Positions 1 to 37,806 are shown, numbered from the stretch's first letter. The stretch is DNA of 64,000 bases from Bacteroidota bacterium (GCA_006218065.1 VBWE01000001.1:191063-255062); one strand, 5' to 3'. Made by a program: numbers and translations. The notes: generated by a model not told the origin, from the letters alone.

Positions 1-143
1 TGCTGCTTTTCGGAATTTTAGAATTTGAACGGAAGAATTTCGATAATGCCTACATCGCACTGGAAAGCGTGATGCGCAACCGGCCGGGGGACGAAACAGC
101 GCGGACGATTTATAAGCGATATTATATTAAGAAACAGAATTGA
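1..143 (+). CDS. 3' end of an upstream CDS (partial; C-terminal ...ALESVMRNRPGDETARTIYKRYYIKKQN*); hypothetical, possibly TPR-like
   Basis: Open frame 3 runs from the window edge to TGA at 141-143. No start is visible in the window. Confidence 0.3.
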   Translation, partial: LLFGILEFERKNFDNAYIALESVMRNRPGDETARTIYKRYYIKKQN

Positions 144-215
144 TTTGCGATTTTGGATTGCCGATTTGCGATGTTTTATTGCAGATATTCAATCGCAAAT
201 CGGCAATCGCAAATC
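142..215. repeat. Inverted pair of the 30-bp 'U' element: RC copy at 142-171, and a direct copy lacking 'caaaa' at 193-215, separated by a 21-nt loop
   Basis: gatttgcgattttggattgccgatttgcga ... tcgcaaatcggcaatcgcaaatc, read directly from the sequence. Lies downstream of the YD-repeat gene. Confidence 0.7.
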
Positions 216-218
216 AGT

Positions 219-1094
219 TCACCGGTAGTATGTGTATGAAATTGCTTCGTGTTCTTCCCTGTCGCCAGATAGTGCACGATTGCAGTGTTCGCCGGAAAGC
301 AAACCTTGCTCATTGTAAGTAAAACTATACGTGCAGATTTCCCGCCGGCCATGGCGGGGCTGGTACGAAACGGAAACCAACCGGCCTGTTGAATCGTACG
401 CATTCGCCATCGTTTCATGGCGGACATCGTGATCATTCCTGCCCTCTCGACTGTTGTACTGCACACGGTAATAAACCGACCGGACGTTTCCACGCTCATC
501 ATACGTATATGATTCGAACGAAGGTGTGTTGGGCGAATTGTGGCTGATGCGGGTGAGCCGGCCCAGGCTGTCGTATTCTTCTTCCCTTTCCCGCCTCCCG
601 GTTTCAGGAGCATACGTGCTGATCCTTTTTCTTTCTCCGGAATTTGTTTCATACCAGTACAGTATCTTTTTCCCATCCAGCAAACGGGTCTTCACTGCCC
701 TTCCCAGCGAGTCGGTTGAATAGGTGTAGTTGAACACGCGACTTACTTTCCCTTGCGCATCGCTGTATGTTTCTTTGGTAAGCCGCCCTTGTTTATCGTA
801 AACGGAAGAAGCGATGTGACAATTGTTTTGGAGCCTGCAATGTTCCTCGCGGACCAGCAAACCGTTGCTATCCAGTTCATACACGGCCCAGCCTATTGTT
901 TTACCGGAAGAGTCGCTGCTGCTTACGCGGATTGTTTTTACTTTTTTGAGTGACTGGGCAAGCAAACGTGCTTTCAGATCGGAAGGATGGACTTGCGCGT
1001 CAGTGCGAAAAACGGGCAGGAGCAGCAAGCAAAATAGCAAACGGAAGATGTATCGATTTGGGGTCGTCGATTTTCGATGTTTTGATTGATGCAT
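219..1094 (-). CDS. Small secreted YD-repeat (RHS-family repeat) protein, 291 aa
   Basis: N-terminal signal peptide (LLFCLLLLPVF). Repeated YDxxGRL / YTYDERGN / YDSTGRLV YD-repeat motifs. Complete ORF. Confidence 0.6.
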   Translation of the reverse strand: MHQSKHRKSTTPNRYIFRLLFCLLLLPVFRTDAQVHPSDLKARLLAQSLKKVKTIRVSSSDSSGKTIGWAVYELDSNGLLVREEHCRLQNNCHIASSVYDKQGRLTKETYSDAQGKVSRVFNYTYSTDSLGRAVKTRLLDGKKILYWYETNSGERKRISTYAPETGRREREEEYDSLGRLTRISHNSPNTPSFESYTYDERGNVRSVYYRVQYNSREGRNDHDVRHETMANAYDSTGRLVSVSYQPRHGRREICTYSFTYNEQGLLSGEHCNRALSGDREEHEAISYTYYR

Positions 1095-1109
1095 GCTGTA
1101 CGTTTTTCA

Positions 1110-1139
1110 ATCGCAAATCGGCAATCCAAAATCGCAAAT
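1110..1139. repeat. Solo copy of the 30-bp U element (tcgcaaatcggcaatccaaaatcgcaaatc)
   Basis: Exact 30-mer that contains a 9-bp direct repeat tcgcaaatc spaced 21 bp centre to centre. Abuts the stop codon of the 1139-1822 gene. Confidence 0.7.
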
Positions 1140-1822
1140 CAGTTAACGGCTTTTTCTTTGGACATCGCCGCATCAAAAACTTTCTGCTGCGCTTCGAGTT
1201 CTGATTTCTTTTTTTCCTGGTCGGATTTGTTTTTGCTGATATCGCTTTCGGCTTTGGAAATTTTGGATTTGTATTCCTCGATCTTCGCCTTGTAGTCTTC
1301 GATGTCTTTCAGCAGGCTCGCCTGGTCTTTTTCGAGATCCTTCTGCTGGTCCTTGAGTTTTTCGAGTTTTTTCTCTTCCTCTTTGGTGATGCCGGCCAGG
1401 CCTTCCTTGGTCATTTTGATGGCGAAATCGTTCACGATGTTTTTCATTTCGCGGAACTGTTCCCCGTGCTGCGACGAAGTCATCCAGGCCCCGCCCATAT
1501 CCACACCCACGATCAGCTTCGATTCGCCCTCTTTTCCTTTTTCAACGCGCATGTAAATATCCACCGGGTTGTTCCCGTTACTTTTGAGCATGGCATTATC
1601 GGCGAAAATTCCGCCTTTGCTGCTCACTTTGCCGTCCATATCCTTCATTTTCGACCGCCACTTGCTTTCGATATCGTCTGCCGTAGCCTGGTAAATAGTA
1701 ACTACGAGCGCATTATGGCTGCCGTCGCCGATTTTCTCGTTGGTTTCACGAACGTCGATTTTCTGTGCATGTGCTGCAACCGCAAAAAGACCGATGGAGA
1801 GAAGAGTAAGTATCTTTTTCAT
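1139..1822 (-). CDS. Secreted hypothetical protein with a C-terminal coiled-coil (K/E-rich) region
   Basis: Signal peptide MKKILTLLSIGLFAVAAHAQ. The C-terminus is a low-complexity coiled-coil heptad-like KLEKLKDQQKDLEKDQ. Confidence 0.5.
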   Translation of the reverse strand: MKKILTLLSIGLFAVAAHAQKIDVRETNEKIGDGSHNALVVTIYQATADDIESKWRSKMKDMDGKVSSKGGIFADNAMLKSNGNNPVDIYMRVEKGKEGESKLIVGVDMGGAWMTSSQHGEQFREMKNIVNDFAIKMTKEGLAGITKEEEKKLEKLKDQQKDLEKDQASLLKDIEDYKAKIEEYKSKISKAESDISKNKSDQEKKKSELEAQQKVFDAAMSKEKAVN

Positions 1823-1875
1823 GATATGTTGTTTTGTGTGTGATCTTTATCAAGAACCTTGCCTAAAGATAGCAA

Positions 1876-2048
1876 ATCTATTTTCGATTTTGGATTGCCG
1901 ATTTGCGATTTTAAACATATGGACGTTAGTGTCTTTGCGCCTTAGCGGTGAAAAAACCGGGATACAAGTTTCACCGCGAAGACACGAAGGCACTAAAACT
2001 TTTGTGGCATCATTTCAATTGCAAATCGGCAATCCAAAATCGCAAATC
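1876..2048. repeat. MITE-like unit: RC(U) at about 1884-1908 and U at 2019-2048 as terminal inverted repeats, flanking a ~110-bp spacer with nested hairpins
   Basis: tcgattttggattgccgatttgcga ... ttgcaaatcggcaatccaaaatcgcaaatc. Internal inverted repeats gtgtctttgcg/cgcgaagacac and cggtgaaa/tttcaccg. Confidence 0.6.
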
Positions 2049-2053
2049 CGTTT

Positions 2054-2626
2054 TCAGTCCACATCCGCTACGCCGCCCGAAACAATAAACTTCATTGCAT
2101 CCGATGAAGGAATATCAAGCGGCTGCACACTGGCGGCGGGAACGATGACCAGGCGGCCGGAAATGGAATACGAAACCGGCAGGTACACCGCTACTTTATC
2201 GCGACCCAAACCGATTTTTGTGAGATCATCCTGCGTGATAAAACCCATTTCCTGGATATTGCTCTGCACGTTGGTAGTTACCAGTACCGGTTTGTTGAAT
2301 CGTTTTTTGTTCCCGATAAACGCCGAAAGGAAATCCTTGATCGAAGAATAAATGATCTTGACCAGCGGCGCTTTTTCGAAAATCCGTTCCATCTCGCGCC
2401 AGAAAAACCGGGCCAGGTAATTGGTCGCCAGCAGGCCCACAAGGAAAATGAGCAGGATCAGCAGCACGGTAAAAATGATCGGGTCGGCATACGGGTGCAC
2501 GATCATATCGAATCTGCCGAAAAGCATACCGATATATACTACCATCTTATAAAGTACCAGCCCCGTGATCGCTACCGGCACTACAACCAGTAAGCCCTGC
2601 AGGAAATAACGTGTAAACTTGCGCAT
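2054..2626 (-). CDS. DUF502-family membrane protein
   Basis: Two N-terminal TM helices and an LPVSYSISGRLVIVP-type motif typical of the DUF502/COG2928 family. Confidence 0.65.
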   Translation of the reverse strand: MRKFTRYFLQGLLVVVPVAITGLVLYKMVVYIGMLFGRFDMIVHPYADPIIFTVLLILLIFLVGLLATNYLARFFWREMERIFEKAPLVKIIYSSIKDFLSAFIGNKKRFNKPVLVTTNVQSNIQEMGFITQDDLTKIGLGRDKVAVYLPVSYSISGRLVIVPAASVQPLDIPSSDAMKFIVSGGVADVD

Positions 2627-5643: not shown

Positions 5644-5753
5644 GATGACCAAATTACTAATTAATCGATGTACTGATTTGAAAATTCGACAATTGAGAAA
5701 ATTTGAAAATGACCCGCGCGCGTTGATTTGTGCGCATTTTCTCAATTTTCAAA
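5644..5753. repeat. Copy A of a ~110-bp intergenic module (R2) carrying a 10-bp-stem dyad
   Basis: Near-identical to 6498-6610 apart from about 6 substitutions. Begins immediately at the cyclase start codon. Contains ttgagaaaat...attttctcaa and gaaaatg...cattttc inverted repeats. Confidence 0.7.
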
Positions 5754-5794
5754 TTGAGTAATTTTCAAATCGGCTCAATTGTCCAATCGGCAAT

Positions 5795-6490
5795 TCAACA
5801 TCCCATAATATTATACGCAATCAACGGCTTATCGGCATCGCGCCACAAAATCCAGCCGGTTACTTTCCGCACTTTTCGTTCGCCGCCTTCGGAATACCAG
5901 TCTTCGATCTGTACCTGCATCCAGCGGCCTTTCACCTGGAGCGGGTTGATGTCGGTATTATCATGATCTTCACCGCCTCTTTGCCCCGAGATAATTTTAA
6001 ACGGCGATTTCGTATCCGGTTTTTCGTAGATTTTATTTTCCGTATCACGGGGAAGATCGATGCTCGCCATGCTTTGGTAAAAGCCGAGCCAGGACAGCAT
6101 CTGAACTTTTTCGTTTACGGATACCCAGGCGGTTTTCTTTTTTTGCGTATGAATGATCACGCGGCAGAATTTTTCTTTTTTCTCGAGGCAGTTCATGTAA
6201 ATGCGCGCCTTTTCAACCGACGTATTGAAATATTCGGGCTGCAGCCATTCGGCGATACTGTCTTTCGGTGAATCGGAAATCATCTTTACGCTGTACGGAC
6301 TTGCCGAATCGAACCGAAAGGTTACTTCGAACCAGGGTGTTTTATCCGTCGCCGGATTTTCCCAGAAACTCAGCGTGACCTGCTGATCAAGGGCGGCATG
6401 TACTACACCGATGCCGTAATTTTTTTCAAAATTTCCCGCGTGAAGCAGGGGAAAAAGAAAAAGCGCGCAAACGAAGAAAACGTGTTTCAT
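5795..6490 (-). CDS. Secreted hypothetical protein (about 231 aa)
   Basis: Signal peptide MKHVFFVCALFLFPLLHA, using the ATG at 6488-6490. No recognisable domain. Bracketed by the two R2 copies. Confidence 0.5.
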   Translation of the reverse strand: MKHVFFVCALFLFPLLHAGNFEKNYGIGVVHAALDQQVTLSFWENPATDKTPWFEVTFRFDSASPYSVKMISDSPKDSIAEWLQPEYFNTSVEKARIYMNCLEKKEKFCRVIIHTQKKKTAWVSVNEKVQMLSWLGFYQSMASIDLPRDTENKIYEKPDTKSPFKIISGQRGGEDHDNTDINPLQVKGRWMQVQIEDWYSEGGERKVRKVTGWILWRDADKPLIAYNIMGC

Positions 6491-6497
6491 GGACAGG

Positions 6498-6610
6498 ATG
6501 ACCAAATTACTAATTTATCAATGTACCGATTTGAAAATTCGACGATTGAGAAAATTTGAAAATGACCCGCGCGTGTTGATTTGTGCGCATTTTCTCAATT
6601 TTCAAATCGG
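6498..6610. repeat. Copy B of the ~110-bp R2 module
   Basis: Fills the whole spacer between the hemW stop (6613) and the start of the 5795-6490 gene. Confidence 0.7.
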
Positions 6611-6612
6611 GA

Positions 6613-7740
6613 CTAAACAATAAACAAATCGGACGCGATCCGGTCGGCCAGCAGTTTTCCCTGTTCGCTCAGCCGGAGGATATTTTCCTCGCGCAGCAAA
6701 TCGCCGGAGAGCAGGTACGGCGCAGCTTCCCCGAGCAGGTAGTCACGTTTCTCAGCGCCGAAGTTTTTTTCGATCTGCTGCAGGTCGCAGCCCCGGGACG
6801 TGCGCAGGCTGATCATCACGTATTCATTATACCGCTGCGCGGGGGTCAGCGTTTCTTCTTCCCAGTATGTTTCGCCGGACTGGATCTTCGCCGCATACTG
6901 TGCATTATTCGCCAGGTTCCAGCGCCGTTTCTTCCCGTCGAACGAATGCGCCGAAGGACCGATGCCGATGTATTTTTCACCGCTCCAGTAACTGCTGTTG
7001 TGCCGGGACAAAAAACCGGGTTTGGCGAAATTGGAAATCTCGTAATGTGCAAAACCGTTTTCGTTCATGCGCTGCATGAGGATGCGGAACTGCTGCGAAG
7101 CAAGCTGCTCGTCAACCGGTTTTACTTTACCGGTTTGTACAAAATGCGCGAGGGCCGTGCGCGGTTCCACGGTGAGGCAATACGATGAAATATGCGGAAC
7201 CTGCAGACCGAATGCCGTTTCCAGGTTTTTTTTCCAGTCTGCATTTTCAAGTCCCGGTATCCCGTAAATCAGGTCGATGGTGATGTTTCCGAAACCGGCG
7301 GCCTGCGCACGTTTTACACAGTCGAGCGCTTCACCTGCAGTATGTACGCGGTTCATCAGCGCAAGGTCCTGTTCCCGGAAAGACTGTATGCCGATGCTCA
7401 GCCTGTTGATGCCGATCTCTTTCAGGCGGCGCAGGTAAACGTCGTTCAGATCATCCGGGTTGGCTTCCAGCGTGATCTCCGCATCTTCCTGCACACGGTA
7501 ATTTTCGCGGAGCAGGCCGAGCATCCGCGCCAGTTCATCCGGGGGAACCAGCGAAGGCGTTCCGCCGCCGAAATAAACAGTTGCCGTTTCTTCGTTCGCA
7601 GATTCCTGCAGCCTGCCGGTGATTTCTTTCTGCATGGCGCGCAGCATGGGCACGACCATTTTCTGCGACGTGGAAAAATGAAAATCGCAATAATGACAGG
7701 CTTGTTTGCAAAAGGGAATATGGATATAAATCCCGGGCAT
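6613..7740 (-). CDS. hemW: Radical SAM haem chaperone HemW (oxygen-independent coproporphyrinogen-III oxidase-like)
   Basis: CxxxCxxC radical-SAM motif (CKQACHYCDF), GGGTPS motif, length about 375 aa. Confidence 0.85.
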   Translation of the reverse strand: MPGIYIHIPFCKQACHYCDFHFSTSQKMVVPMLRAMQKEITGRLQESANEETATVYFGGGTPSLVPPDELARMLGLLRENYRVQEDAEITLEANPDDLNDVYLRRLKEIGINRLSIGIQSFREQDLALMNRVHTAGEALDCVKRAQAAGFGNITIDLIYGIPGLENADWKKNLETAFGLQVPHISSYCLTVEPRTALAHFVQTGKVKPVDEQLASQQFRILMQRMNENGFAHYEISNFAKPGFLSRHNSSYWSGEKYIGIGPSAHSFDGKKRRWNLANNAQYAAKIQSGETYWEEETLTPAQRYNEYVMISLRTSRGCDLQQIEKNFGAEKRDYLLGEAAPYLLSGDLLREENILRLSEQGKLLADRIASDLFIV

Positions 7741-7793
7741 ATTTTTATGTGAACAAAGAAGCTATAAAGTAAGGGCAAGACAGTGTCTTGCCC

Positions 7794-10427
7794 TTACTTT
7801 ATAGCTTCCAGTTCCTTTTTCTTATCGGCGATCATCTTCTCCATCTCTTTCGCTTTCGCCATTTTGTCTTTTAATGCCTGGATGCCGGTAGCTTCTTTGT
7901 TCACGGAAGCAAGTTCATCGATGCGGCGCTGGTATTCTTTCTGTTTTTCAACGTAGCCTTTGCGGACGGTTTCCATGCTGTTGCCAGTGAAGCTGCGGAA
8001 GAACGGTGATTTATATTTCGTGTACATTTTTTCGTACACCGCGAGTCCTTTCGTAACCGTTTCGTCGCTGCAGCGCGTGAGGTACTGCCCGTAAAAACCG
8101 ATATAGCCGATCAGTGTGTACCCGGTGATATCATCGCAGCAGCGCACCATGAAATCGAAATTGGCGTCGCTGCCGGCTTTGCCGTAGAGTTCACAAAGTG
8201 AGACTTTGACCGATTCACTTTCTTCGTTTTCATACTGTGCGGCCACCTTCATGCCTTCTTCGGTGCTCACGGCCGTAATGGCGCCGATGGCCGTACCGAG
8301 TACATAATAAGAACGATCGTTCAAAGCGTTTTTGTAAACCCCGAGCAGATCGGCATCGCCCACTTTATCGGCGAGTGCGGCAAGCGCTTCTGCGCGCACA
8401 TCCGACTTTTCATCCTGCTTTGCCATGGCGATGAGCTTCTCTTTATACGGCTTCACGTCCTTACCCAGTTTGCGGATAGCGATCATGCGCAGGTACCAGA
8501 ATTTGTCGTCGAGCGCTTTCCCGAGCACAACCAAAGCGAGGGAATCTTTCTGTGCTTTTTCCGTTTTTTCGCGCGGGGCCAAACCGTAAATCGCTTCGTA
8601 ACGATCCACGTAAAGCGGTGCGTTGCTATACTGGAAAGCCCATTCTTTTTTCGTTTTGTGATCTTCTTTTTCGCAGAGTATGCGTTTCGCCGCATCCACA
8701 TTCACCAGGTCGGGTTTTGACGAAACGTCGAACGTAAAAGTTTGTTCCCGTTCGTTCATCACGATCCGGTGACGTGTTTTTGTTCCGTTCGCATACACAT
8801 CCACATCCATCGGCAAACGGTAAACGGCAGGCACACCGCCCTTGGAACTTTGTGTCTGGCGAAGCGTCAGTTTTTCCTGTTTTTTCGTTTCGTCGTAGCT
8901 GTACGAAATATCCAGCACGGGATGGCCCGGCGATAAAAACCACTGGTTGAAATACCAGCTGAGGTCTTCCCCGGTTACCTGTTCAAAAGCCATGCGCAGG
9001 TTGTGAATTTCCACCGATTTGTACCGGTTCGATTCCAGGTACAGTTTCAGCGATGCGAAAAACGCTTCGTCGCCCACGTACCAGCGCAGCATACGCAGCA
9101 CCTGCCCGCCTTTGTTGTAGGAATGACTGTCGAACATGTCTTCCTTGTCCTCATAAAAGTAGCGGATCAGCGCTTCTTTTTTCCCCTGCCCGGCTTCGCG
9201 GAAATACCCGTCGCGCGAGTGCTGGCTGTGGTATTCTTCGGCTTCGCTGCCGTGCGCGAATTCTTCCCAGAGGTCTTCCCCGTACGTAGCGAACGATTCG
9301 TTCAGCGGCAGGTTGCTCCACGATTCGCAGGTAACCAGGTCGCCGAACCACTGGTGGAAAAGCTCGTGCGAAATATAATCTTCGTAATTCCCGTCGAGCA
9401 TTTCGCGCTCGGTTTGCTGCAGCTTTTCGCCATGCAGTGTGGCCGTGGTATTTTCCATCGCACCCGAAACGTAATCGCGGGCGCAAATCTGCGCGTACTT
9501 GCCCCAGGGATAATCCACGCCGAGTTTTTTGGAAAAGTATTCCATCATTTCCGGGGTGCGCCCGAAAATGGCGCGGGCATACTGTTCGTATTTTTTCTCG
9601 ACATAGTAACTCACTTCTTTGTCGCGCCACTTGTCTTTGACTACGGCGAAATCGCCCACGGCCATCATCACCAGGTAAGGCGCGTGCGGCAGGTTCATCA
9701 CCCAGCGATCGGTGCGGGTTCCGTCGGTGTTTTTCACCGATTCCGTCATCACGCCATTGGAAAGCGTAACGTATTTATCCTCCACCGTCATGTAAATTTC
9801 CTGTGTCATCCGTTCGTTCGGGCGATCCACGGTGGGGAACCAGGCGGAACTGGCCTGCGTTTCACCCTGCGTCCAGATCTGCATCGGCTTGTTCGGTTCT
9901 TTCCCGTCGGGATTGATGAAGTACAATCCTTTGTCGGAATTGATCGCTGCGCTGCCGCCGGCTTTCAGCTCATCGGGCTTCGCGACGTAATCGATAAAAA
10001 TGGTGTACGACTGGTCGCGTGTGTACTCGCGGCCGAGCTGGATCGAAATCACATCGGCGGCATACTTGTACTCCAGCGCTTTTTTCCCGGAAGCATCTAT
10101 CATGGATACTTCTTTGATCTCCATGCCGCGTGCATCGAGGTCGAGCGTTTTCACCGGGTAGAAATACGGCCGTGCGCTGATCGTCGCTTTTCCGTAGAGG
10201 TAACGCTTCTGCCAGTCGAAAGAAACTTCCAGCTTCGTATGCAGCAAATCGTTCACACGCGTTTCGGCATACTGGTGCACCCGCGGGGCACGCGGCGTAA
10301 TGTCGAGCGTGTCCACGTTGACCTGGACTAAAGTATCATGATTATGGCGGCGGGCTCTTTTTGCCGGGTCACATCCGGCGGTAAAAAAAATACCGGCAGC
10401 AGCCAGCAGGGAAAAAATGCTTCTCAC
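7794..10427 (-). CDS. M1-family zinc aminopeptidase with a C-terminal HEAT/ARM-like repeat region, probable lipoprotein
   Basis: GAMEN (VSGAMENT) and HELFHQWFGDLVT...E zinc motifs. A candidate GTG start at 10427 gives a lipoprotein signal MRSIFSLLAAAGIFFTAGC. The ORF track extends to 10502. Confidence 0.8.
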   Translation of the reverse strand: MRSIFSLLAAAGIFFTAGCDPAKRARRHNHDTLVQVNVDTLDITPRAPRVHQYAETRVNDLLHTKLEVSFDWQKRYLYGKATISARPYFYPVKTLDLDARGMEIKEVSMIDASGKKALEYKYAADVISIQLGREYTRDQSYTIFIDYVAKPDELKAGGSAAINSDKGLYFINPDGKEPNKPMQIWTQGETQASSAWFPTVDRPNERMTQEIYMTVEDKYVTLSNGVMTESVKNTDGTRTDRWVMNLPHAPYLVMMAVGDFAVVKDKWRDKEVSYYVEKKYEQYARAIFGRTPEMMEYFSKKLGVDYPWGKYAQICARDYVSGAMENTTATLHGEKLQQTEREMLDGNYEDYISHELFHQWFGDLVTCESWSNLPLNESFATYGEDLWEEFAHGSEAEEYHSQHSRDGYFREAGQGKKEALIRYFYEDKEDMFDSHSYNKGGQVLRMLRWYVGDEAFFASLKLYLESNRYKSVEIHNLRMAFEQVTGEDLSWYFNQWFLSPGHPVLDISYSYDETKKQEKLTLRQTQSSKGGVPAVYRLPMDVDVYANGTKTRHRIVMNEREQTFTFDVSSKPDLVNVDAAKRILCEKEDHKTKKEWAFQYSNAPLYVDRYEAIYGLAPREKTEKAQKDSLALVVLGKALDDKFWYLRMIAIRKLGKDVKPYKEKLIAMAKQDEKSDVRAEALAALADKVGDADLLGVYKNALNDRSYYVLGTAIGAITAVSTEEGMKVAAQYENEESESVKVSLCELYGKAGSDANFDFMVRCCDDITGYTLIGYIGFYGQYLTRCSDETVTKGLAVYEKMYTKYKSPFFRSFTGNSMETVRKGYVEKQKEYQRRIDELASVNKEATGIQALKDKMAKAKEMEKMIADKKKELEAIK

Positions 10428-10729
10428 GGAATCGTAGCTTGTTTGTTTGGTCAAGAGATGGTCTGTAGCTTCAAAAGTCCGCCTTTTCAGGCGAATATTC
10501 AAAACTGGCCTAAAGTTCCGGTTTTACCGGCAAATACGGTCTTTTTTTTTACCGGCGGCCCTTGGTGCTTGCGAGCGGAACGATGGAACTGACTTCAGAG
10601 GCATATATGCACGAATCCCGGGAACATATCTTTTCATTTGCGGCCATAAAGACGTACGGGCGGTAAGTACACATTGACCAATAAACGGTATTTTTGCTGA
10701 CGCGGATGTTTGAATCCGCAGGCAGAGCA

Positions 10730-18404: not shown

Positions 18405-21400
18405 TTAATTCTGCGTTTGCAAAGCGCTGATGTATTCCTCCAACGTTTCGCTGATCTTGTCCATACTGAACTGGGCCAGCGGCGTCGGGTTGATGTTATA
18501 GTATTCCGGGTTGTTGTTTTTGCGCAGCGTATAAATATGCTGCTTCCCTTCTTCGAAACGCCCGATCGGGTCGATGGTCATCGTCAGGATCTGGTAATCG
18601 AAATTCTTCGCCAGTTCGTACAGCATGTCGAAGTTTTCGCCCAGGCCGGCCACTTCGTCGATGGTCATGAAGCGGATTCCTTTTTTCACCTTCCTGTTCT
18701 TTCCGCTCAGGCGGTCGCTGTCGATGATCGAGAGTCGCGCGATACAAAGCAGGGCGAGCATGGTGTAGTTCTGCCCGTTCGATCCCGGCGCATCCTCGCC
18801 CCGCGGTGTTTTGAGGCTCATCATCAGGTCGAAATACGATTTCGGGTTCGTCAGTTTTTTCACATCCGGCCGTACGTTCTTACCGTCGCTGTGCTCGAGG
18901 AAGGCTTTCAGGATGATCGCGTCGGCTCCTTCGTTTTCTGTTTCGAACATTTTGAACAGGCCCACGTTCTGCGCTTTCGCACTGATCTGCTTGTTCAGGC
19001 TGCGGATCCAGCTGATCGGGTAACCTTTCGAGGGTTCGAAATTGATTTCCACGTAGTGTCCGCCGGAGATTTTATTCTGCTTGAAGAACTCGCGCATATC
19101 TTCCACGCGGTCGCGGTATTCGCTGTACACTTCTTCGATGCGCGAGAAAATACCCGAGATGATCTTCAGCTTGTGGTCGTTGATCTCGTTCATCTTCTGG
19201 TTGATGATGCGCAGGTGTTCTTCCACATCGCTGGCCAGGTCGCTTTCCACGTTGTCCGGGTTCTTGATGATTTTCGGAAGCATGCACTCGGCGAGCGTGA
19301 GGAAATCGTACAGGTGATTGTACTTGAGTCTTTCCTCGTCCACCAGGTTGAAATTCGGATCACGCATGATCTGGTCGAAATTCGACTCGTAGGTTTTCTG
19401 CGTGGTGATCACGGAAACTTTGGCTTTGTTCACCACGCTTTCCTCGATCTGTTCCGTGATATCCGCCGGGTTGAACTCGCCTACTTTTTCCGTGTACTGT
19501 TTATGCGATTCGCGGTAGCGCGCTTCGAGCATCGGCGCCTGTTCCATCAGGCCCACCAGGCGTGCATCGAGCCCGCCCTGCTTGCGCGAGATTTCCTGCA
19601 GGCGCTGCGTAAAGCCGTTCCAGAGCATCTTGCTGCTGCTGCCGTGTTCTTTTTCTATCGCCTTGATTTCGCTGTTCACTTTCACCTGGAACTGCTCACC
19701 TTCCGAAGGACGCATGTAATTGGCTACGTCTTTCAGCCAGTCGGCAAAACGTTCGTCGAGCGACTTGCGCTCCTGCTGGAAATTTTTCAGTTCGCGTTCT
19801 CTTTCTGGAAGGTCGGCGGTGTTGATCTGCTTGATCAGGCTTTCGATCGCCTGTTCGTTGCCCTGCGAGTTGGTGATGATGTCGTCGGCCTCTTTCAGTT
19901 TCTGCAAAGCGTCTTCCCACGACTTTTTCGCTTCCTCGTACTGCAGGCGCAGGTTGTTCTGCGGATTCACATAAAGATCGATCGTATTTTCGAATTCTTC
20001 TTTTGTGAACAGCAGCGTTTCATCCGGGTTGAATGACGCGTATTCCTTGCGGTGCATCCACACGTCGGCCACCTGCTGGTTGTAACCGAATTCGTACAGC
20101 AGGTCGCGGAGATGACGAACGTTGTTCCGTTCCGCCGTGAGTTTTTCCAGTTCCTTTTCGATCGTGTCCCCGTATTTTTTCAATTCGGATTCGATCGTTT
20201 TCGGGTTATTGAATATCTGTTTGGGCACCAGCGAAACGAATTCGCGCACGCCGCCCATATCGATCCAGATTCCTTTGTCTTCTTTTTCCGCGACTTTGAT
20301 GTTGAAGATTTCTTCCGGCTTCGGGATGTACCGGGCAAACTCGCGGTAATCTTCCGGCTTGCTCGTGGTCAGTCCCTTGAAATGCATCAGGATCGATTCC
20401 TCTTCGCGCGTCAGTTTTCCCGCGTTGCTGATCGCCCACTGCACAACCGAATCCGTGCTTTCGCTGTCGAAAAGTGGCAGGATCTGTTCGAGGCGAAGAA
20501 TATCCGTATCGAGTTGGTCCGTCAGCCCGTCATACTCGGCCTGCGCCAGCCGGTAATCCTGCGACCAGGTTGAATTCATGAACTCGTCGTAAATCGCTTT
20601 ATCGACCAGGTACTGTTCGAGTTCTTCGAATTTCTGTTTATCGCGGGCGGTTTTTTCCTGGCTGTAAAACTGGGCGCGGATGCCGTCCACTGTTTTGTAG
20701 GTGCGCAGCCAGCTTTCCACCACTTTCACTTTCGTCCATTTCGCGCTGGCTTCGTCGTAATCGGCCTGCGAGATCTGGCAGCCTTTTTCGTACGAGGCGC
20801 GATTCTTCTCGGCGAATTCGCGTTGTTTCTTTTTGTTCTCGAGATCGCGTTCGAGGCGTTCGTGTTCGCCGGTGATTTCATCCAGCTCGCGTTCGATCGA
20901 TTCGATGTTCAATTCGTTCACGCGTTTCTCGAACATGATCTGCTGCAGGTTCACATACGCTACTTCTTTCTGCGTGCGGACCAGGTCGCGGCTTACCACG
21001 TCCTTATGCTGGAACGCGTAGCCCGTTTCGAGGAACAACGAACGCTGCAAAGCCTTGTCTCTTTTCTTCTTGTCTTCGAGCAGGGCCAGCAGGCGATCCT
21101 TCTTCAGTTTGACGAGTTCGTACACGCGCGCGCGGCGCTTGTATTCTTCGTGCGCATCTTCGATTTCCTTTTTGCGCTTTTCGTATTCCTTGTTCTGATC
21201 GTCGTCGTTGGCGAAAAGGAAATTTTTCAGGTCATCGCTTTTCGAACCGATGCCTTTGCCGCGTGAAAACGACTGGAGGATCTGCGAAAAGGTTTTGAGT
21301 TTCTTTTCGTCCTGGCTCAGGTCGATACCGAGAATCTCGTTCCCGTAAAGCAGCCGGTGAAATTCGGCCGTACGGTTGTAAAAATGTTTCAGCTGGTAGC

Positions 21401-21890
21401 CGCGTTTCTCCACCACTTCCTTCATCTGGTCGATCGGCAGGATCTGTTTGTTGTACAGGAAATCCCGGTACAGCAGGAAACCGTCCATCGGTTCAAGACA
21501 GAGATCGGTGTCCGGGTTGAAATCGCCGCCCTTCTGGATGATGAACGGGTAAACGGCGCGGCTGTTCGTCTGGATATGAATGCCGACCAGGATGAATTTG
21601 CCTTTGTCCACTTCCACGTTCGCGAACGTATAGCCGAGCCCGGCCACCGCATCGTGCTTGAGCACCATGCCTTCGATGGTTCGTTTTTCGCTCGTCATAA
21701 CTTCGGTTGACGATTCCCAGTATTCTTTCTTCGCCACGAAGATGAGCTGGAGCAGGTCGGCGATGACCGATTTCCCCGATCCGGAACCGCCTGTGAAGTC
21801 GGTACGCAGCGGGTGCAGCAGGTAGTCGCAGTTGTTGTGGTAGATGATGCCTACCGTGGAAAGGGAGAAGATGCGCGGATATTGTTTCAT
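18405..21890 (-). CDS. SMC-like ATPase of MukB/MksB/JetC type (condensin / Wadjet large subunit)
   Basis: 1161 aa. The N-terminal Walker A, FSLSTVGIIYHNNCDYLLHPLRTDFTGGSGSGKSVIADLLQLIF, follows the MukB N-terminus pattern (FRSLTLINWNGFF...TTLSGGNGAGKSTTMAAF). Long coiled-coil middle section. C-terminal Walker B FMTIDEVAGL and a signature-like SNGQN. Confidence 0.7.
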   Translation of the reverse strand: MKQYPRIFSLSTVGIIYHNNCDYLLHPLRTDFTGGSGSGKSVIADLLQLIFVAKKEYWESSTEVMTSEKRTIEGMVLKHDAVAGLGYTFANVEVDKGKFILVGIHIQTNSRAVYPFIIQKGGDFNPDTDLCLEPMDGFLLYRDFLYNKQILPIDQMKEVVEKRGYQLKHFYNRTAEFHRLLYGNEILGIDLSQDEKKLKTFSQILQSFSRGKGIGSKSDDLKNFLFANDDDQNKEYEKRKKEIEDAHEEYKRRARVYELVKLKKDRLLALLEDKKKRDKALQRSLFLETGYAFQHKDVVSRDLVRTQKEVAYVNLQQIMFEKRVNELNIESIERELDEITGEHERLERDLENKKKQREFAEKNRASYEKGCQISQADYDEASAKWTKVKVVESWLRTYKTVDGIRAQFYSQEKTARDKQKFEELEQYLVDKAIYDEFMNSTWSQDYRLAQAEYDGLTDQLDTDILRLEQILPLFDSESTDSVVQWAISNAGKLTREEESILMHFKGLTTSKPEDYREFARYIPKPEEIFNIKVAEKEDKGIWIDMGGVREFVSLVPKQIFNNPKTIESELKKYGDTIEKELEKLTAERNNVRHLRDLLYEFGYNQQVADVWMHRKEYASFNPDETLLFTKEEFENTIDLYVNPQNNLRLQYEEAKKSWEDALQKLKEADDIITNSQGNEQAIESLIKQINTADLPERERELKNFQQERKSLDERFADWLKDVANYMRPSEGEQFQVKVNSEIKAIEKEHGSSSKMLWNGFTQRLQEISRKQGGLDARLVGLMEQAPMLEARYRESHKQYTEKVGEFNPADITEQIEESVVNKAKVSVITTQKTYESNFDQIMRDPNFNLVDEERLKYNHLYDFLTLAECMLPKIIKNPDNVESDLASDVEEHLRIINQKMNEINDHKLKIISGIFSRIEEVYSEYRDRVEDMREFFKQNKISGGHYVEINFEPSKGYPISWIRSLNKQISAKAQNVGLFKMFETENEGADAIILKAFLEHSDGKNVRPDVKKLTNPKSYFDLMMSLKTPRGEDAPGSNGQNYTMLALLCIARLSIIDSDRLSGKNRKVKKGIRFMTIDEVAGLGENFDMLYELAKNFDYQILTMTIDPIGRFEEGKQHIYTLRKNNNPEYYNINPTPLAQFSMDKISETLEEYISALQTQN

Positions 21891-22034
21891 CGTAGTGTAC
21901 TTCGTAAGTATGTGTTACTTCGGGCGATGCAGTGCATCGCCCTTACTTTTTGGTTCATCCTGTGAGGTGGATCACCCTTATTCTGGTTCCAGAGTAGGGG
22001 CGATCTGCCTCCGGCGGATCGCCCTATGTACTCC

Positions 22035-22724
22035 TTAGTCTTCTTCTATCGTAGTCAGGCCGCCGGTGCGTTCTTCCATCATGTTGCTTTCGTCGATCAG
22101 GCGGTCGATGTGGTGGATTTCGTACGAGTACATGGTGAACAGGCGCTCGATGGAGGGCATGATTTCGAACAGTTCCTTGTTGCGGTGATCGAAGTGAATC
22201 CAGCCGAGGCGTTCGAATTCCTTCAGCGAGTTGCGGATCCATTCATCGATTGTGTTTTCATCGATCTCCGTCGCTTCTTTCTCGCGGCGTTTGGCGAAGA
22301 GGTTGTAGATATAGCTCTTGTACTCTTCGTTGCTCTTCACCAGCTGGATAAGATCCGGCACGTAGATGTCGTTAATGAAGTATTTATCGATGCGGTGTAT
22401 CTTCAGCAGCAGGATGCCCATGAGCGTATGTTCGGGCGACAGTTTTTTGGACCGCGTTTTCACGATACCGCGGCTCTCGTCGTCCAGCTCGAGGTAGAAG
22501 TACCGCGTATAGTCCGTGCCTTTGGTTACCAGCGCGACCTTGAACAGGTTTTTGTAATACATCCGCAGCTCGTCTTCGAACTTCTCGAGGAAATTGAACA
22601 GGTCGGTCTGGTGCGGAAAGTTCTGGACATGCTGCCCGCTTTTCAGCAGGAAGTCGAGCTCCGCAAAAAGATTTTCAGCTTCGTCCGTTTCTAGGAAGCT
22701 GTATTTTTTATTTGCATTTTCCAT
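22035..22724 (-). CDS. MksE/JetB-like (MukE-family kleisin-associated) subunit candidate
   Basis: 229 aa, acidic and helical. Sits between the F-like and B-like genes in the canonical F-E-B order. Start overlaps the upstream gene by 34 nt. Confidence 0.45.
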   Translation of the reverse strand: MENANKKYSFLETDEAENLFAELDFLLKSGQHVQNFPHQTDLFNFLEKFEDELRMYYKNLFKVALVTKGTDYTRYFYLELDDESRGIVKTRSKKLSPEHTLMGILLLKIHRIDKYFINDIYVPDLIQLVKSNEEYKSYIYNLFAKRREKEATEIDENTIDEWIRNSLKEFERLGWIHFDHRNKELFEIMPSIERLFTMYSYEIHHIDRLIDESNMMEERTGGLTTIEED

Positions 22725-37592: not shown

Positions 37593-37806
37593 TCTTAAGT
37601 TGGTTTAAATCTTTGGTCTGTTCTTCAAAAAGCAAAAGCAAAGGGCAAAAAGCAAATAAAGTTCAGGTGTTCAATTTGTTTGCCTCTTGCATATTGCCTT
37701 TTGCTTTTAATTGTACTGACTTTTTTATTCTACTTGCTTTAAGAGTTCGCAAAGATCGTTTTCATCCGATTGCATTCCTTCGCGTTCCTGTATTTAAATC
37801 ATATTT

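What the first reader, a model, noticed from the sequence alone, without database searches (positions are those of the whole stretch)
142..2048. Thirty-bp 'aatcggcaat' U element in six copies, mostly as inverted pairs, punctuating two secreted-protein genes
The unit tcgcaaatcggcaatccaaaatcgcaaatc is itself a 9-bp direct repeat (tcgcaaatc) spaced 21 bp centre to centre. It occurs at 142-171 (reverse complement), 193-215, 1110-1139, 1884-1908 (reverse complement) and 2019-2048. Copies sit at both ends of the YD-repeat gene and of the coiled-coil secreted-protein gene. Two pairs face each other as TIR-like arms, one with a 21-nt loop and one with a 110-bp structured spacer. The core aatcggcaat recurs at 5784-5794 next to the R2 module. 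This could be a REP/BIME-like family, a MITE family, or an array of two-turn direct-repeat operator sites for one regulator controlling a secreted-protein regulon.
Basis: seen in the sequence. Interest (0 to 1): 0.5.

Follow-up and report, generated by a model that had tools for sequence, protein, structure and literature searches.

The report
Heptamer-array hairpins at gene boundaries
The repeated 30-mer is a run of 7-base units (NNN-AATC) that, as inverted pairs, fills the gaps after four stop codons in a Bacteroidetes genome, and it belongs to a largely undescribed family with the same 7-base grammar and strict orientation rules found at gene boundaries in at least five bacterial phyla and in phage contigs.

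Summary
There are five clear copies (142-171-, 191-215+, 1109-1140+, 1879-1910-, 2017-2048+) and one decayed copy (1049-1078-).

The "30-mer" is a run of 4-5 heptamers, NNN-AATC. The copies form three inverted pairs that start -2, 3, -2 and 5 nt from four stop codons. Two pairs fold into very stable hairpins. Close relatives lack them, or carry a different AATC-type pair at the same spot.

The same grammar (AATC-G-V-M)n, and even the same 22-mer, occurs in Verrucomicrobia, Planctomycetes, Acidobacteria and Chloroflexi MAGs. It also occurs in more than 120 metagenome stretches and more than 120 viral stretches.

Family rules:
- Only period 7 is enriched.
- The order [GATT-arm][AATC-arm] beats the reverse 61:2.
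- Arrays begin at the stop codon and end at the start codon or SD.
- They also flank tRNAs and sit inside operons (ureA|ureB, rplU|rpmA, sufB|sufD).

It is therefore not a secreted-protein operator, not a canonical terminator, and not a classic MITE or REP. The best reading is a REP/BIME-like gene-boundary hairpin built from heptanucleotide arrays. It is probably read through by RNA polymerase and acts on mRNA 3'-end stability and on translation near the stop codon. Function is untested.

The parts
139..172 (-). Left arm of hairpin 1. It holds the exact 30-mer at 142-171(-). On the + strand it reads (GATTNNN)x4 and begins inside the TGA stop (141-143) of the + strand TPR-like gene.
   Evidence: (I1/I12/I15)
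173..190 (.). Loop of hairpin 1.
191..215 (+). Right arm of hairpin 1. A shortened copy (4 AATC units, one heptamer fewer than the 30-mer) that gives a 7-nt bulge. It ends 3 nt before the stop (219-221, reverse complement) of the RHS-repeat ORF.
219..1094 (-). RHS/YD-repeat ORF (291 aa) with a signal-peptide-like N terminus. It is an orphan gene, absent from the orthologous loci L033 and L035, and is bracketed by arms 139-172 and 1109-1144 (35 nt, 97% complementary).
   Evidence: (I1)
1049..1078 (-). Decayed AATC-type array overlapping the first ~15 codons of the RHS ORF. It is the degenerate partner of arm 1109-1140.
   Evidence: D3: 1035-1081, 64%; fold not significant
1109..1140 (+). Five-unit arm holding the exact 30-mer at 1111-1140. 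Its last AATC overlaps the stop (1139-1141, reverse complement TGA) of the coiled-coil ORF. It lies 14 nt upstream of the RHS start on the - strand.
1139..1822 (-). Coiled-coil ORF with signal peptide (227 aa). It is conserved next to the DUF502 gene in relatives.
1851..1871 (-). Conserved motif TATCTTTAGGCAAGGTTCTTG between the arm and the coiled-coil start. It is kept in all orthologous loci whether or not they carry the element, and is a putative promoter or leader of the coiled-coil gene (inference).
1879..1910 (-). Left arm (+ strand coordinates) of hairpin 3, with 2 mismatches to the 30-mer. On the - strand it is the AATC-type 3' arm, 56 nt upstream of the coiled-coil ATG.
   Evidence: (I6)
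1911..2016 (.). Spacer of hairpin 3. It contains its own 28-nt-arm hairpin at 1926-1953 / 1969-1996.
   Evidence: (I14)
2017..2048 (+). Right arm of hairpin 3, with 1 mismatch to the 30-mer. It ends 5 nt before the stop (2054-2056, reverse complement) of the DUF502 gene.
2054..2626 (-). DUF502 membrane-protein gene. It is identical to NCBI "MAG: Bacteroidetes bacterium" FD123_149, which identifies the source organism.
5674..5797 (.). R2 module, a related dialect: an inverted pair of A/T-rich arms with AATT/AATC cores at 7-8-nt spacing. Its right arm contains AATCGGCAAT and abuts the stop at 5795-5797. A second copy lies at 6526-6607, 3 nt from the stop at 6613-6615.
   Evidence: (I3, I7, I8, D2)
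37628..37714 (.). Another heptamer-array inverted pair with a different core ((NNGCAAA)x4 / (TTGCNNN)x4) and the opposite arm order. It lies between two - strand genes (homoserine dehydrogenase and PAPS reductase).

Best explanation
Anatomy (shown). The element is a gene-boundary inverted pair of heptanucleotide arrays. Each arm is 3-7 head-to-tail units of AATC-G-V-M, read as GATT... on the other strand. In any transcript the U/G-rich (GAUUNNN)n arm comes first and starts at or within a few nt of a stop codon or tRNA 3' end. The A/C-rich (NNNAAUC)n arm comes second and runs up to the next start codon, SD or tRNA 5' end. Any arm of the family pairs with any other, so two arms in one transcript give a 25-30-bp hairpin that takes up most or all of the spacer.

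Mechanism (inferred).
- RNA polymerase reads through the hairpin, because there is no U tract and many copies sit inside obligate operons.
- The hairpin then acts like E. coli REP/BIME elements placed no more than 15 nt after a stop codon.
- It would protect the upstream mRNA segment from 3' exonucleases.
- It would interfere with, or be unzipped by, the terminating ribosome. Where the 3' arm abuts the next start, it would mask that start until the upstream gene is translated.
- A 26-30-bp perfect stem such as 1879-2048 is also a plausible RNase III site, and an RNase III gene lies in the window.

Origin (inferred). Arrays grow and shrink by 7-nt slippage and are copied locally. The three near-identical pairs in 2 kb, and the orphan RHS gene bracketed by two arms, are recent events in this lineage.

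In this window. The pairs most likely serve as 3'-end hairpins for the TPR-like, RHS, coiled-coil and DUF502 genes. They are not switches for a secreted-protein regulon.
For: Anatomy in the window:
- Searches give the copies and the period.
- Gaps to the four stops are -2, 3, -2 and 5 nt.
- Hairpin stability is z about -7.

Family, measured on 153 fetched loci plus the window:
- Period 7 is uniquely enriched: 105 arrays against 0-4 at other periods.
- The order GATT-arm then AATC-arm is seen 61 times against 2 for the reverse.
- After same-strand stops, GATT-type arrays outnumber AATC-type 56:4 within 15 nt.
- 52 of 65 GATT arrays begin no more than 12 nt after the stop, and 11 share the TGA.
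- About 50 of 79 AATC arrays end 0-13 nt before a start codon. The start is often the ATG of the last unit, or an SD sits in between.
- MFE folds of 62 pairs show a median of 29 arm-arm bp and a median dG of -39.6 kcal/mol.
- A given arm folds as well with arms from other loci (-26.6 kcal/mol) as with its own partner (-27.7), so the grammar itself guarantees pairing.

Read-through is inferred from operon-internal sites:
- ureA|ureB, rplU|rpmA, ctc|pth.
- sufB|sufD.
- tRNA-Ile|tRNA-Ala and tRNA-His|tRNA-Arg.
- No hairpin-plus-U-tract terminator at the window copies.

Constraint: in three Opitutaceae species the GATT arm, which the search pattern did not select, is 83% invariant. The spacer between the arms is 26% invariant and the flanking CDS 67-72%.

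Turnover and slippage:
- The element is absent in L033, L034 and L039.
- L035 carries a different AATC-type pair at the same spacer, again sharing the TGA.
- Copies differ by 7-nt indels.

Precedent: REPs fewer than 16 nt from a stop codon down-regulate translation and stall ribosomes (Liang, Rudd and Deutscher 2015, as summarised in PMC12306157).

An RNase III gene lies at 52827-53552.
Against: - No transcript, ribosome or nuclease data exist, so every functional step is inference.
- 129 of 232 arrays have no strict partner, and their best upstream duplex is barely better than the downstream one (-18.7 against -17.5 kcal/mol). Many arrays are therefore solos, and the hairpin cannot be the whole story.
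- Arms within a pair are only marginally more complementary than random arm combinations, so there is no pair-specific covariation.
- The same polarity holds next to tRNA genes, which translation-based mechanisms do not explain.
- Pairs are not depleted from divergent spacers: 4 of 37 against 14% background (using a crude ORF caller).
- In the window none of the three 3' arms abuts a start codon, so the start-masking part of the model does not apply here.
- Part of the A-arm conservation is ascertainment: 22 of its 33 columns were fixed by the search pattern.
Confidence: 0.42

Rival explanations
1. Selectively neutral or selfish "spacer filler". Heptanucleotide arrays arise and spread by replication slippage, template switching at inverted repeats and gene conversion. 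They expand until they meet constrained sequence (stop codon, SD or start, tRNA ends), and only harmless orientations survive. Under this view they have no function of their own.
For: - Arrays run exactly from boundary to boundary, whatever the boundary is: stop, start or tRNA end.
- Copies differ by 7-nt indels.
- Relatives differ in presence, absence and dialect at the same spacer.
- Other heptamer cores occur in the same loci: CCGCACT, CTCGCCT, GTGAAAC, GCAAA.
- Pairs are distributed over co-directional, convergent and divergent spacers like the background.
- Arrays also occur in phage contigs, which replicate in the same hosts.
- Heptamer SSR excess has been ascribed to polymerase slippage (Mrazek 2007, as cited in PMC4692102).
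Against: - The polarity is strict: 56:4 after stops and 61:2 for pairs. A restricted unit grammar is shared across phyla. Both need selection or a directional mechanism.
- The GATT arm is better conserved than the neighbouring coding sequence across three species. That is not expected for a hypermutable neutral SSR.
- Units are heterogeneous, which suppresses slippage.
Confidence: 0.25
2. Arrays are binding sites, one per 7 nt, for a widely conserved single-strand nucleic-acid-binding protein. Candidates are a cold-shock-domain or S1-type OB-fold protein. An alternative is pairing in trans between GAUU-type trailers and AAUC-type leaders. The array, not the hairpin, would be the functional unit, for example as an unstructured, start-codon-free translation leader.
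For: - More than half of the arrays are solos that still obey the polarity rules.
- The grammar is AATC-G-V-M with T only before C, so the leader-sense strand cannot contain ATG, GTG, TTG or any stop codon.
- Arrays abut start codons without an SD in Verrucomicrobia, and sit upstream of an SD elsewhere.
- Long identical sequences are shared across phyla.
- MacGregor 2015 proposed S1, Csp or CsrA binding for TAACTGA heptamer repeats just upstream of start codons (PMC4679880).
- Cold-shock domains bind about 7 nt (own knowledge).
Against: - No factor has been identified and nothing was tested.
- The complementary GATT-type arrays after stop codons and after tRNAs have no obvious role in this model.
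- The cross-phylum 22-mer identity can arise from a small unit vocabulary (GGC, GCA, GAA, CAA, TAA) plus lineage-specific amplification of one variant.
Confidence: 0.15
3. A non-autonomous mobile element (MITE-like, or REP-like and mobilised by a RAYT/IS200-IS605-type enzyme encoded elsewhere). Its ends are the arrays, and it inserts next to stop codons. The RHS gene would be cargo between two ends.
For: - 35-nt terminal inverted repeats bracket the RHS ORF at 97% complementarity, and 31-nt ones bracket the 1879-2048 unit.
- Relatives provide an empty site, and the RHS gene is absent from them.
- Arm orientation is fixed.
- Copies occur in phage contigs, which are possible vehicles.
- Short-read contigs break inside the element.
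Against: - No target-site duplication at any window copy.
- No conserved interior or size class: loops of 19, about 30 and 110 nt in the window, and 5-185 nt in the family.
- Arms vary combinatorially in unit number and sequence.
- No transposase among the 61 ORFs of the window.
- Only one cluster lies in 64 kb.
- Single units are not hairpins as REPs are.
Confidence: 0.12
4. Bidirectional intrinsic transcription terminators that punctuate the genes.
For: - Very stable hairpins lie directly after four genes, one of them between convergent genes.
- tRNA genes in other loci are followed by the GATT arm.
Against: - No U tract follows any stem, and the terminator scan finds nothing at the hairpins.
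- Family members sit inside ureAB, rplU-rpmA, suf and tRNA clusters, where termination would be deleterious.
Confidence: 0.05
5. Operator sites (9-bp direct repeats two helical turns apart) for one regulator of a secreted-protein regulon.
For: - TCGCAAATC is repeated at 21-bp spacing.
- Two neighbouring ORFs have signal peptides.
Against: - The true period is 7, not 21.
- The sites begin at stop codons.
- The flanking genes across the family are unrelated housekeeping genes and tRNAs.
- No DNA-binding regulator lies nearby.
- The orthologous coiled-coil gene keeps its upstream motif without the element.
Confidence: 0.01

Closest known systems
E. coli REP / BIME elements (repetitive extragenic palindromes)
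   Same: - Short extragenic repeats used as inverted pairs that form RNA hairpins.
- They lie inside and at the ends of operons and are transcribed through.
- A large share lies within 15 nt of a stop codon, where REPs down-regulate translation and stall ribosomes (PMC12306157).
- REPs also stabilise upstream mRNA (own knowledge).
   Different: - A single unit here is a heptamer array, not a palindrome.
- There is no GTAG head and no RAYT in the window.
- Units are combinatorial rather than one consensus.
- The family spans phyla instead of being species-specific.
- The arrays run right up to, and share bases with, stop and start codons.
TAACTGA intergenic heptamer direct repeats of Beggiatoaceae, Cyanobacteria and some Bacteroidetes (MacGregor 2015, PMC4679880)
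   Same: - Tandem 7-nt units that are intergenic and mostly within a few nt upstream of start codons in forward orientation.
- Scattered across distant phyla, with no link to gene function.
- Indels in 7-nt steps.
- Mixed with other heptamers.
   Different: - The unit differs, and the TAACTGA repeats are essentially homogeneous.
- They are almost never inverted (one indirect repeat among 170 sets).
- No rule about stop codons was reported.
- Here the units are heterogeneous (AATC core), commonly in inverted pairs, and have a fixed trailer/leader polarity.
GGGAATC / GGGGA(C/T)T heptamer repeats of Xanthomonas and Nostoc, and cyanobacterial STRR heptanucleotide repeats (Rehm 2015, PMC4692102)
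   Same: - Heterogeneous heptamer arrays, most commonly of four units, and about 185 per genome.
- Strongly intergenic and close to ORF ends.
- Sometimes inverted pairs between convergent genes.
- Transcribed, with positions conserved but lengths variable between relatives, and function unknown.
   Different: - Those are G-rich and form G-quadruplexes.
- Their polarity is the opposite when aligned on AATC: the GGGAATC strand lies downstream on the coding strand.
- They are under-represented between divergent genes.
- The present family is A/C-rich on one strand, has no G-tracts, and has the grammar AATC-G-V-M.
Intercistronic RNase III hairpins of phage T7 early mRNA and long-range-pairing translational coupling (e.g. 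MS2 coat-replicase) (own knowledge, not tested here)
   Same: - Long stems that occupy the spacer between cistrons.
- They are read through by RNA polymerase.
- They are either cut to give stable 3' hairpins, or mask the next start until the upstream cistron is translated.
   Different: - Those are unique sequences, not a genome-wide and phylum-wide repeat family with 7-nt periodicity.
- No cleavage or coupling has been shown for the present element.

Membership tests
REP/BIME | Each unit is itself an imperfect palindrome of about 20-40 nt | tested here: not met
   The single 30-mer folds at -0.9 kcal/mol (sense) and -7.2 kcal/mol (antisense, with G-U pairs). Hairpins need two arms.
REP/BIME | Conserved GT(A/G)G head, and a cognate RAYT (TnpA-REP) gene in the genome | tested here: inconclusive
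   No GTAG-type head in the unit. No Y1 transposase or any transposase among the 61 ORFs of the window. Only 64 kb of the genome could be read.
REP/BIME | Extragenic, in inverted pairs, often no more than 15 nt after a stop codon | tested here: met
   Gaps of -2, 3, -2 and 5 nt in the window. In the family, 56 GATT-type arrays begin within 15 nt of a stop.
REP/BIME | Tens to hundreds of copies dispersed in the same genome | not testable with these tools
   All 5-6 copies lie within 2 kb of the 64-kb window. The 417-kb source contig could not be fetched.
MITE | Terminal inverted repeats | tested here: met
   Arms of 31-36 nt at 92-97% complementarity (I1, I2, I4, I6).
MITE | Target-site duplication flanking the element | tested here: not met
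   No direct duplication at the ends of 139-215, 139-1144 or 1879-2048 (reading).
MITE | Copies share an internal sequence and size class derived from an autonomous element | tested here: not met
   Loops of 19, about 30 and 110 nt are unrelated in sequence. Family loops are 5-185 nt. No transposase lies in the window.
MITE | Insertion polymorphism at orthologous sites | tested here: met
   L033, L034 and L039 lack the element between the DUF502 and coiled-coil genes. L033 has a 10-nt spacer where the window has 995 nt.
Intergenic heptanucleotide repeat arrays (STRR / TAACTGA / GGGAATC type) | Head-to-tail units of exactly 7 nt | tested here: met
   AATC at period 7 for 4-5 units. Period 7 is the only enriched period in the window and in related loci (105 against 0-4).
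Intergenic heptanucleotide repeat arrays (STRR / TAACTGA / GGGAATC type) | Intergenic, close to ORF boundaries, unrelated to gene function | tested here: met
Intergenic heptanucleotide repeat arrays (STRR / TAACTGA / GGGAATC type) | Length variation in 7-nt steps between copies or relatives | tested here: met
   191-215 against 1109-1140. The two L130 copies differ by one AATCGGC unit.
Intergenic heptanucleotide repeat arrays (STRR / TAACTGA / GGGAATC type) | The same unit sequence as a described family | tested here: not met
   The unit AATC-G-V-M differs from TAACTGA, CCCCAGT-type STRR and GGGAATC. Polarity is opposite to GGGAATC. Full-text search for the arm sequences found no bacterial-repeat paper.
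Intrinsic (Rho-independent) terminator | G+C-rich stem followed by a U tract | tested here: not met
   The scan finds none at the three hairpins. The stems are A/U-rich and are followed by mixed sequence.
Intrinsic (Rho-independent) terminator | Sits at ends of transcription units | tested here: not met
   Family members lie inside ureAB, rplU-rpmA, ctc-pth, sufBD and tRNA clusters.
Direct-repeat operator (e.g. LytTR-type, 9-bp repeats 21 bp apart) | Repeats lie in the promoter of regulated genes, with a cognate regulator | tested here: not met
   The repeats begin at stop codons. No LytTR or other DNA-binding regulator lies in the first 50 kb. The only response regulator (53565-53990) has a receiver domain only.
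Any Rfam family | Match at the gathering score | tested here: not met
   The only hit in the window is a tRNA. In E-value mode there are only sub-threshold plant miRNA-precursor models, which are generic long hairpins.

The most novel reading that the evidence does not exclude
The AATC-G-V-M heptad arrays are a conserved, phylum-spanning "gene-boundary code". (GAUUNNN)n trailers that start at the stop codon, and (NNNAAUC)n leaders that end at the start codon, would be read in a 7-nt register by a widely conserved trans-acting factor. That factor could be an OB-fold cold-shock or S1-type protein, or the arrays could pair with each other in cis and in trans. The result would couple termination of one cistron to initiation of the next, and set mRNA and tRNA-precursor processing. 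It would operate in Bacteroidota, Verrucomicrobiota, Planctomycetota, Acidobacteriota, Chloroflexota and their phages.
Probability: 0.15. Interest if true: 0.85.

Novelty: new variant of a known kind. Interest (0 to 1): 0.58.

Why it matters
Excess heptanucleotide repeats in bacterial intergenic DNA have been noted since the cyanobacterial STRR sequences, and again in 2007 and 2015, without an accepted function. This family adds several hard, testable regularities that earlier descriptions lack:
- A unit grammar shared across at least five phyla and their phage contigs.
- A near-absolute trailer/leader polarity.
- Arrays that share bases with stop and start codons.
- Residence inside obligate operons and tRNA clusters.
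- An arm that is better conserved than the neighbouring coding sequence.

If the arrays are functional, they point to a common post-transcriptional device in poorly studied phyla that use few Shine-Dalgarno sequences or canonical terminators.

If they are not functional, they are a clean natural read-out of where constraint begins and ends at gene boundaries, and of a directional mutational process.

There are practical consequences too:
- The arrays break short-read assemblies.
- They extend ORF calls, because they are open in all six frames.
- They can mark true start codons.

Tried and rejected
- **Rfam.** Searches at gathering and E-value thresholds found no family.
- **Terminator and promoter scan.** Nothing at the hairpins.
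- **Plasmid BLAST of 100-260.** No match.
- **Metagenome search for relatives of the coiled-coil protein.** 160 pattern hits, none confirmed.
- **Homologues of the RHS ORF, to test a "mobile cassette" idea.** The ORF is an orphan, so no comparison was possible.
- **Fetching the 417-kb source contig to count copies genome-wide.** Only short contigs were returned, and they end inside the elements.
- **Pair-specific covariation.** In-register spacer complementarity was 0.669 against 0.632 +/- 0.019 for permuted arms. Own arms against chimeric arms gave -27.7 against -26.6 kcal/mol, p = 0.08. Unit counts of the two arms are not correlated (rho 0.19). There is therefore no evidence that the two arms of a pair co-evolve beyond the shared grammar.
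- **Sigma-54, sigma-70 -10/-35, Bacteroidetes -33/-7, IHF and integron attC core motifs.** Compared by eye. The spacings or key bases do not fit (GG-N11-GC instead of N10; no TAnnTTTG at the right distance; GTTAACG is not GTTRRRY).
- **Identity with the Xanthomonas GGGAATC repeats.** Rejected because the polarity is opposite and there are no G-tracts.
- **Full-text search for the arm sequences.** Returned only primers from unrelated papers.
- **Strict lag-7 autocorrelation.** Too insensitive, and was replaced by the periodic 4-mer scan.

Full report
**1. What is in the window**

The 30-mer TCGCAAATCGGCAATCCAAAATCGCAAATC occurs at four places, with none expected by chance:
- 142-171(-), exact.
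- 1111-1140(+), exact.
- 1879-1908(-), 2 mismatches.
- 2019-2048(+), 1 mismatch.

A shortened copy lies at 191-215(+). A decayed copy lies at about 1049-1078(-).

The unit is better described as a heptamer array: AATCGCA AATCGGC AATCCAA AATCGCA AATC.
- AATC at period 7 gives 9 matches against 0 expected.
- Period 7 is the only period at which the window has arrays of four or more units.
- The 191-215 copy differs from the others by exactly one heptamer.

All neighbouring genes end at the arrays.

| Gene | Coordinates and strand | Gap from stop to array |
|---|---|---|
| TPR-like | ends 143, + | -2 nt |
| RHS-repeat ORF | 219-1094, - | 3 nt |
| Coiled-coil ORF | 1139-1822, - | -2 nt |
| DUF502 | 2054-2626, - | 5 nt |

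A gap of -2 means that the TGA stop shares GA with the first GATT.

The copies make three inverted pairs.
- 142-215 folds at -37 (- strand) and -44 (+ strand) kcal/mol, z -7.3 and -6.6.
- 1879-2048 folds at -74 kcal/mol, z -6.7. It has a 26-30-bp outer stem and a second hairpin in its 110-nt spacer.
- The third pair (1049-1140) is decayed and does not fold significantly.

No stem is followed by a U tract, and the terminator scan finds nothing at them. Rfam has no matching family.

**2. Source and relatives**

The DUF502 protein is identical to FD123_149 of an NCBI "MAG: Bacteroidetes bacterium". T9SS sorting domains and SprB repeats in the window agree with Bacteroidota.

Orthologous loci in relatives show turnover.
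- L033/L034 (85% identical DUF502) and L039 (78%) have a 77-78-nt DUF502/coiled-coil spacer with no array. They keep the motif TATCTTTAGGCAAGGTTCTTG upstream of the coiled-coil gene.
- In L033 the coiled-coil and TPR genes converge with only 10 nt between their TGA stops. There is no RHS gene.
- The 170-nt unit 1879-2048, and the block "arm - RHS ORF - arm" (139-1144, 35-nt ends 97% complementary), are therefore specific to this lineage.
- The RHS ORF is an orphan among 5.8 billion proteins.
- L035 (75%) carries a different AATC-type inverted pair at the same DUF502/coiled-coil spacer: GATTTCG GATTTTC ... AAATCCG AAATCCG AAATCGG. It again starts inside the TGA stop.

**3. The family is not genome-specific but phylum-spanning**

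- The exact 22-mer GCAAATCGGCAATCCAAAATCG occurs in 31 stretches from species-representative genomes. These are many Opitutaceae/Verrucomicrobia MAGs, two Planctomycetaceae, one Chloroflexi and one Pyrinomonadaceae.
- In the 31 genome loci, exact-4-mer arrays of four or more units number 105 at period 7 and 0-4 at every other period from 4 to 12.
- Arrays that do not overlap the search pattern (118 arrays) define the grammar: AATC, then G (68%), then A/C/G (T 3%), then A (59%) or C (38%). On this strand T occurs only before C, so no start or stop codon can form in any frame.

The cross-phylum identity of a 22-30-mer is therefore partly explained by a small vocabulary of units (GGC, GCA, GAA, CAA, TAA). 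Lineage-specific amplification of one variant explains more of it. An example is CCAATCGCAAATCGGCAATCCAAAATCGAAAATC in Opitutaceae. The shared grammar itself remains to be explained.

**4. Rules of placement**

These were measured on 153 loci plus the window, about 0.85 Mb, with my own crude ORF caller.

(a) *Order of arms.* Neighbouring arrays within 200 nt are [GATT-arm][AATC-arm] 61 times and [AATC][GATT] twice. Loops are 5-185 nt. Viral contigs show the same bias, 17 against 4.

(b) *After stop codons.*
- Within 15 nt after a same-strand stop codon there are 56 GATT-type and 4 AATC-type arrays.
- 52 of 65 GATT arrays begin no more than 12 nt after the stop.
- 11 share the TGA (TGATT...). 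TAA stops are followed by AATT-type first units.

(c) *Before start codons.*
- About 50 of 79 AATC-type arrays end 0-13 nt before a start codon.
- The commonest form is AATCgaaaATG, in which the start codon replaces the ATC of the last unit.
- When the gap is 9-24 nt, a GGAG-type SD sits in it.

(d) *tRNA genes.* The same polarity holds there. GATT-type trailers follow tRNA 3' ends and AATC-type leaders precede tRNA 5' ends. This includes tRNA-Ile|tRNA-Ala and tRNA-His|tRNA-Arg spacers.

(e) *Spacer classes.* Pairs occupy co-directional, convergent and divergent spacers in background proportions: 26/7/4 against 374/85/77.

(f) *Inside operons.* Many copies are operon-internal:
- ureA|ureB, rplU|rpmA (two organisms), ctc|pth, efp|kdtA.
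- sufB|sufD.

**5. Hairpin or array?**

Evidence for the hairpin:
- In MFE folds of 62 strict pairs the arms make a median of 29 base pairs with each other. The median dG is -39.6 kcal/mol.

Evidence that the array alone is a unit:
- A given GATT arm pairs almost as well with AATC arms taken from other loci: -26.6 against -27.7 kcal/mol, p = 0.08.
- In-register complementarity of the variable triplets is only marginally above permuted arms.
- The grammar therefore guarantees pairing, and I found no pair-specific covariation.
- 129 of 232 arrays have no strict partner and only a slightly better duplex upstream than downstream. These solos still obey the polarity and abutment rules.

Both the hairpin and the single array therefore have to be considered as units.

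**6. Constraint**

In the sufB|sufD spacer of three Opitutaceae species:
- The AATC arm is 33/33 invariant. However, 22 of these columns were fixed by the search pattern.
- The GATT arm, which was not selected, is 29/35 invariant.
- The sequence between the arms is 26% invariant.
- The flanking coding sequence is 67-72% invariant.

This argues for purifying selection or concerted evolution, not for a freely slipping SSR. Against that, copies differ by whole heptamers and relatives differ in presence and dialect. The arrays are therefore dynamic on longer time scales.

**7. Interpretation**

*Shown.* A heptanucleotide-array family exists with a defined grammar. It has strict trailer/leader polarity and bases shared with stop and start codons. 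It resides inside operons and tRNA clusters, and has strong hairpin potential when paired.

*Inferred.*
- RNA polymerase reads through these elements, because there is no U tract and they lie inside operons.
- The hairpins then act post-transcriptionally, as E. coli REP/BIME elements do.
- REPs closer than 16 nt to a stop codon down-regulate translation and stall ribosomes (Liang, Rudd and Deutscher 2015, as summarised in PMC12306157).
- REPs protect upstream mRNA (own knowledge).
- Where the 3' arm abuts the next start codon, the stem base would be opened by the terminating ribosome. This would give translational coupling (inference).
- Long perfect stems such as 1879-2048 are plausible RNase III substrates, and an RNase III gene lies at 52827-53552.

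In this window the three pairs most likely serve as 3'-end hairpins of four genes. Their near identity, and the bracketed orphan gene, indicate recent local duplication or recombination.

I give this model a confidence of 0.42. The rivals:

| Rival | Confidence |
|---|---|
| Neutral or selfish slippage-driven filler bounded by constraint | 0.25 |
| Binding arrays for a 7-nt-register factor, or trans pairing | 0.15 |
| Mobile MITE/REP-like element | 0.12 |
| Terminator | 0.05 |
| Regulon operator | 0.01 |

The unexplained core is the polarity, which also holds at tRNA genes, and the cross-phylum grammar.

**8. Relation to what is known**

Over-representation of heptameric repeats in bacterial intergenic DNA is on record:
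- Mrazek 2007, as cited in PMC4692102.
- Cyanobacterial STRR sequences.
- TAACTGA repeats lying just upstream of start codons in Beggiatoaceae, Cyanobacteria and Bacteroidetes (PMC4679880).
- GGGAATC arrays in Xanthomonas, sometimes as inverted pairs (PMC4692102).
- Heptamer repeats affecting recF and recO expression in Nostoc (bioRxiv 10.1101/2022.06.06.494920).

None of these describes this unit, its strict polarity, its embedding of stop and start codons, or its distribution. Full-text searches for the arm sequences found nothing relevant. The Xanthomonas repeats have the opposite polarity and form G-quadruplexes, so they are a different family.

I therefore rate the finding as a new variant of a known kind. 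The evidence is descriptive and no function has been demonstrated.

Noticed in passing
window 5674-5797 and 6526-6607: The "R2" module is a second periodic inverted pair, with AATT/AATC cores at 7-8-nt spacing, present in two 95%-identical copies. It fills the spacers after the stops at 5795-5797 and 6613-6615 (array starts at the stop, or 3 nt after it). It obeys the same stop-abutment rule as the AATC family.
   Followed up: partly
window 37628-37714: A heptamer-array inverted pair with a different core, (NNGCAAA)x4 ... (TTGCNNN)x4, and the opposite arm order (A-rich arm first). It lies between the homoserine dehydrogenase and PAPS reductase genes. A similar GCAAA-type array occurs in relative L035 at 812-830.
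   Followed up: partly
window 7758-7808: A perfect 25-nt palindrome (GAAGCTATAAAGTAAGGGCAAGACA / reverse complement, 1-nt loop). It sits across the spacer between HemN (start at 7740) and the C-terminal codons and stop of the M1 aminopeptidase gene (7794-10502, - strand), so it overlaps the end of that gene.
   Followed up: no
window 219-1094: The RHS-repeat ORF bracketed by the arms is an orphan. Only its own sequence is found among 5.8 billion proteins at E <= 1e-10. Its first ~15 codons overlap a decayed AATC-type array, as if the N terminus had been recruited from an array.
   Followed up: partly
L001 (end at 2409) and L162 (end at 3870): Independent short-read contigs of the same organism stop inside the elements: 30 nt after the coiled-coil stop and 172 nt after the DUF502 stop. 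The arrays therefore break assemblies.
   Followed up: no
L040 (IMG/VR UViG_2510461066_000001) about 7900-8010: A long 21-nt-period array, (AATCGGA AATCGGC AATCCAA)n, appears to be in frame with a downstream ORF. It would encode a (SEIGNPK)n heptad peptide, a possible case of an array inside a coding sequence.
   Followed up: no
L010 7122-7884: In a Verrucomicrobia MAG the arrays are embedded in a higher-order tandem repeat of about 216 nt. Each unit carries two AATC arrays about 90 nt apart.
   Followed up: no
L002-L032 flanks (e.g. L004, L013, L016, L024, L031): Opitutaceae intergenic regions upstream of genes are strongly C-rich and G-poor on the sense strand. They hold other 7-nt periodic arrays (CCGCACT, CTCGCCT, CCTCCCT, CCACCGN). 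L009 (Chloroflexi) has a GTGAAAC-type array fused to the AATC array.
   Followed up: no
L014 310-412 versus window 142-215: A Pyrinomonadaceae (Acidobacteria) locus (efp|kdtA spacer) has the same combination as window hairpin 1. A full arm AATCGCAAATCGGCAATCCAAAATCGCAAAT faces the same shortened arm AATCGCAAATCGGCAATCGCAAATC, which gives the same 7-nt bulge.
   Followed up: no
window, whole (ORF calling): The arrays are open in all six reading frames. Longest-ORF calls therefore run through them and over-extend N termini, for example the spurious ORFs 140-322(+) and 1086-1295(+), and TTG "starts" made by GATT+G.
   Followed up: partly
window 18408-24088: A MksB/MksE-like condensin gene cluster (MukB N-terminal and MksE domains). 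It is unrelated to the finding.
   Followed up: no
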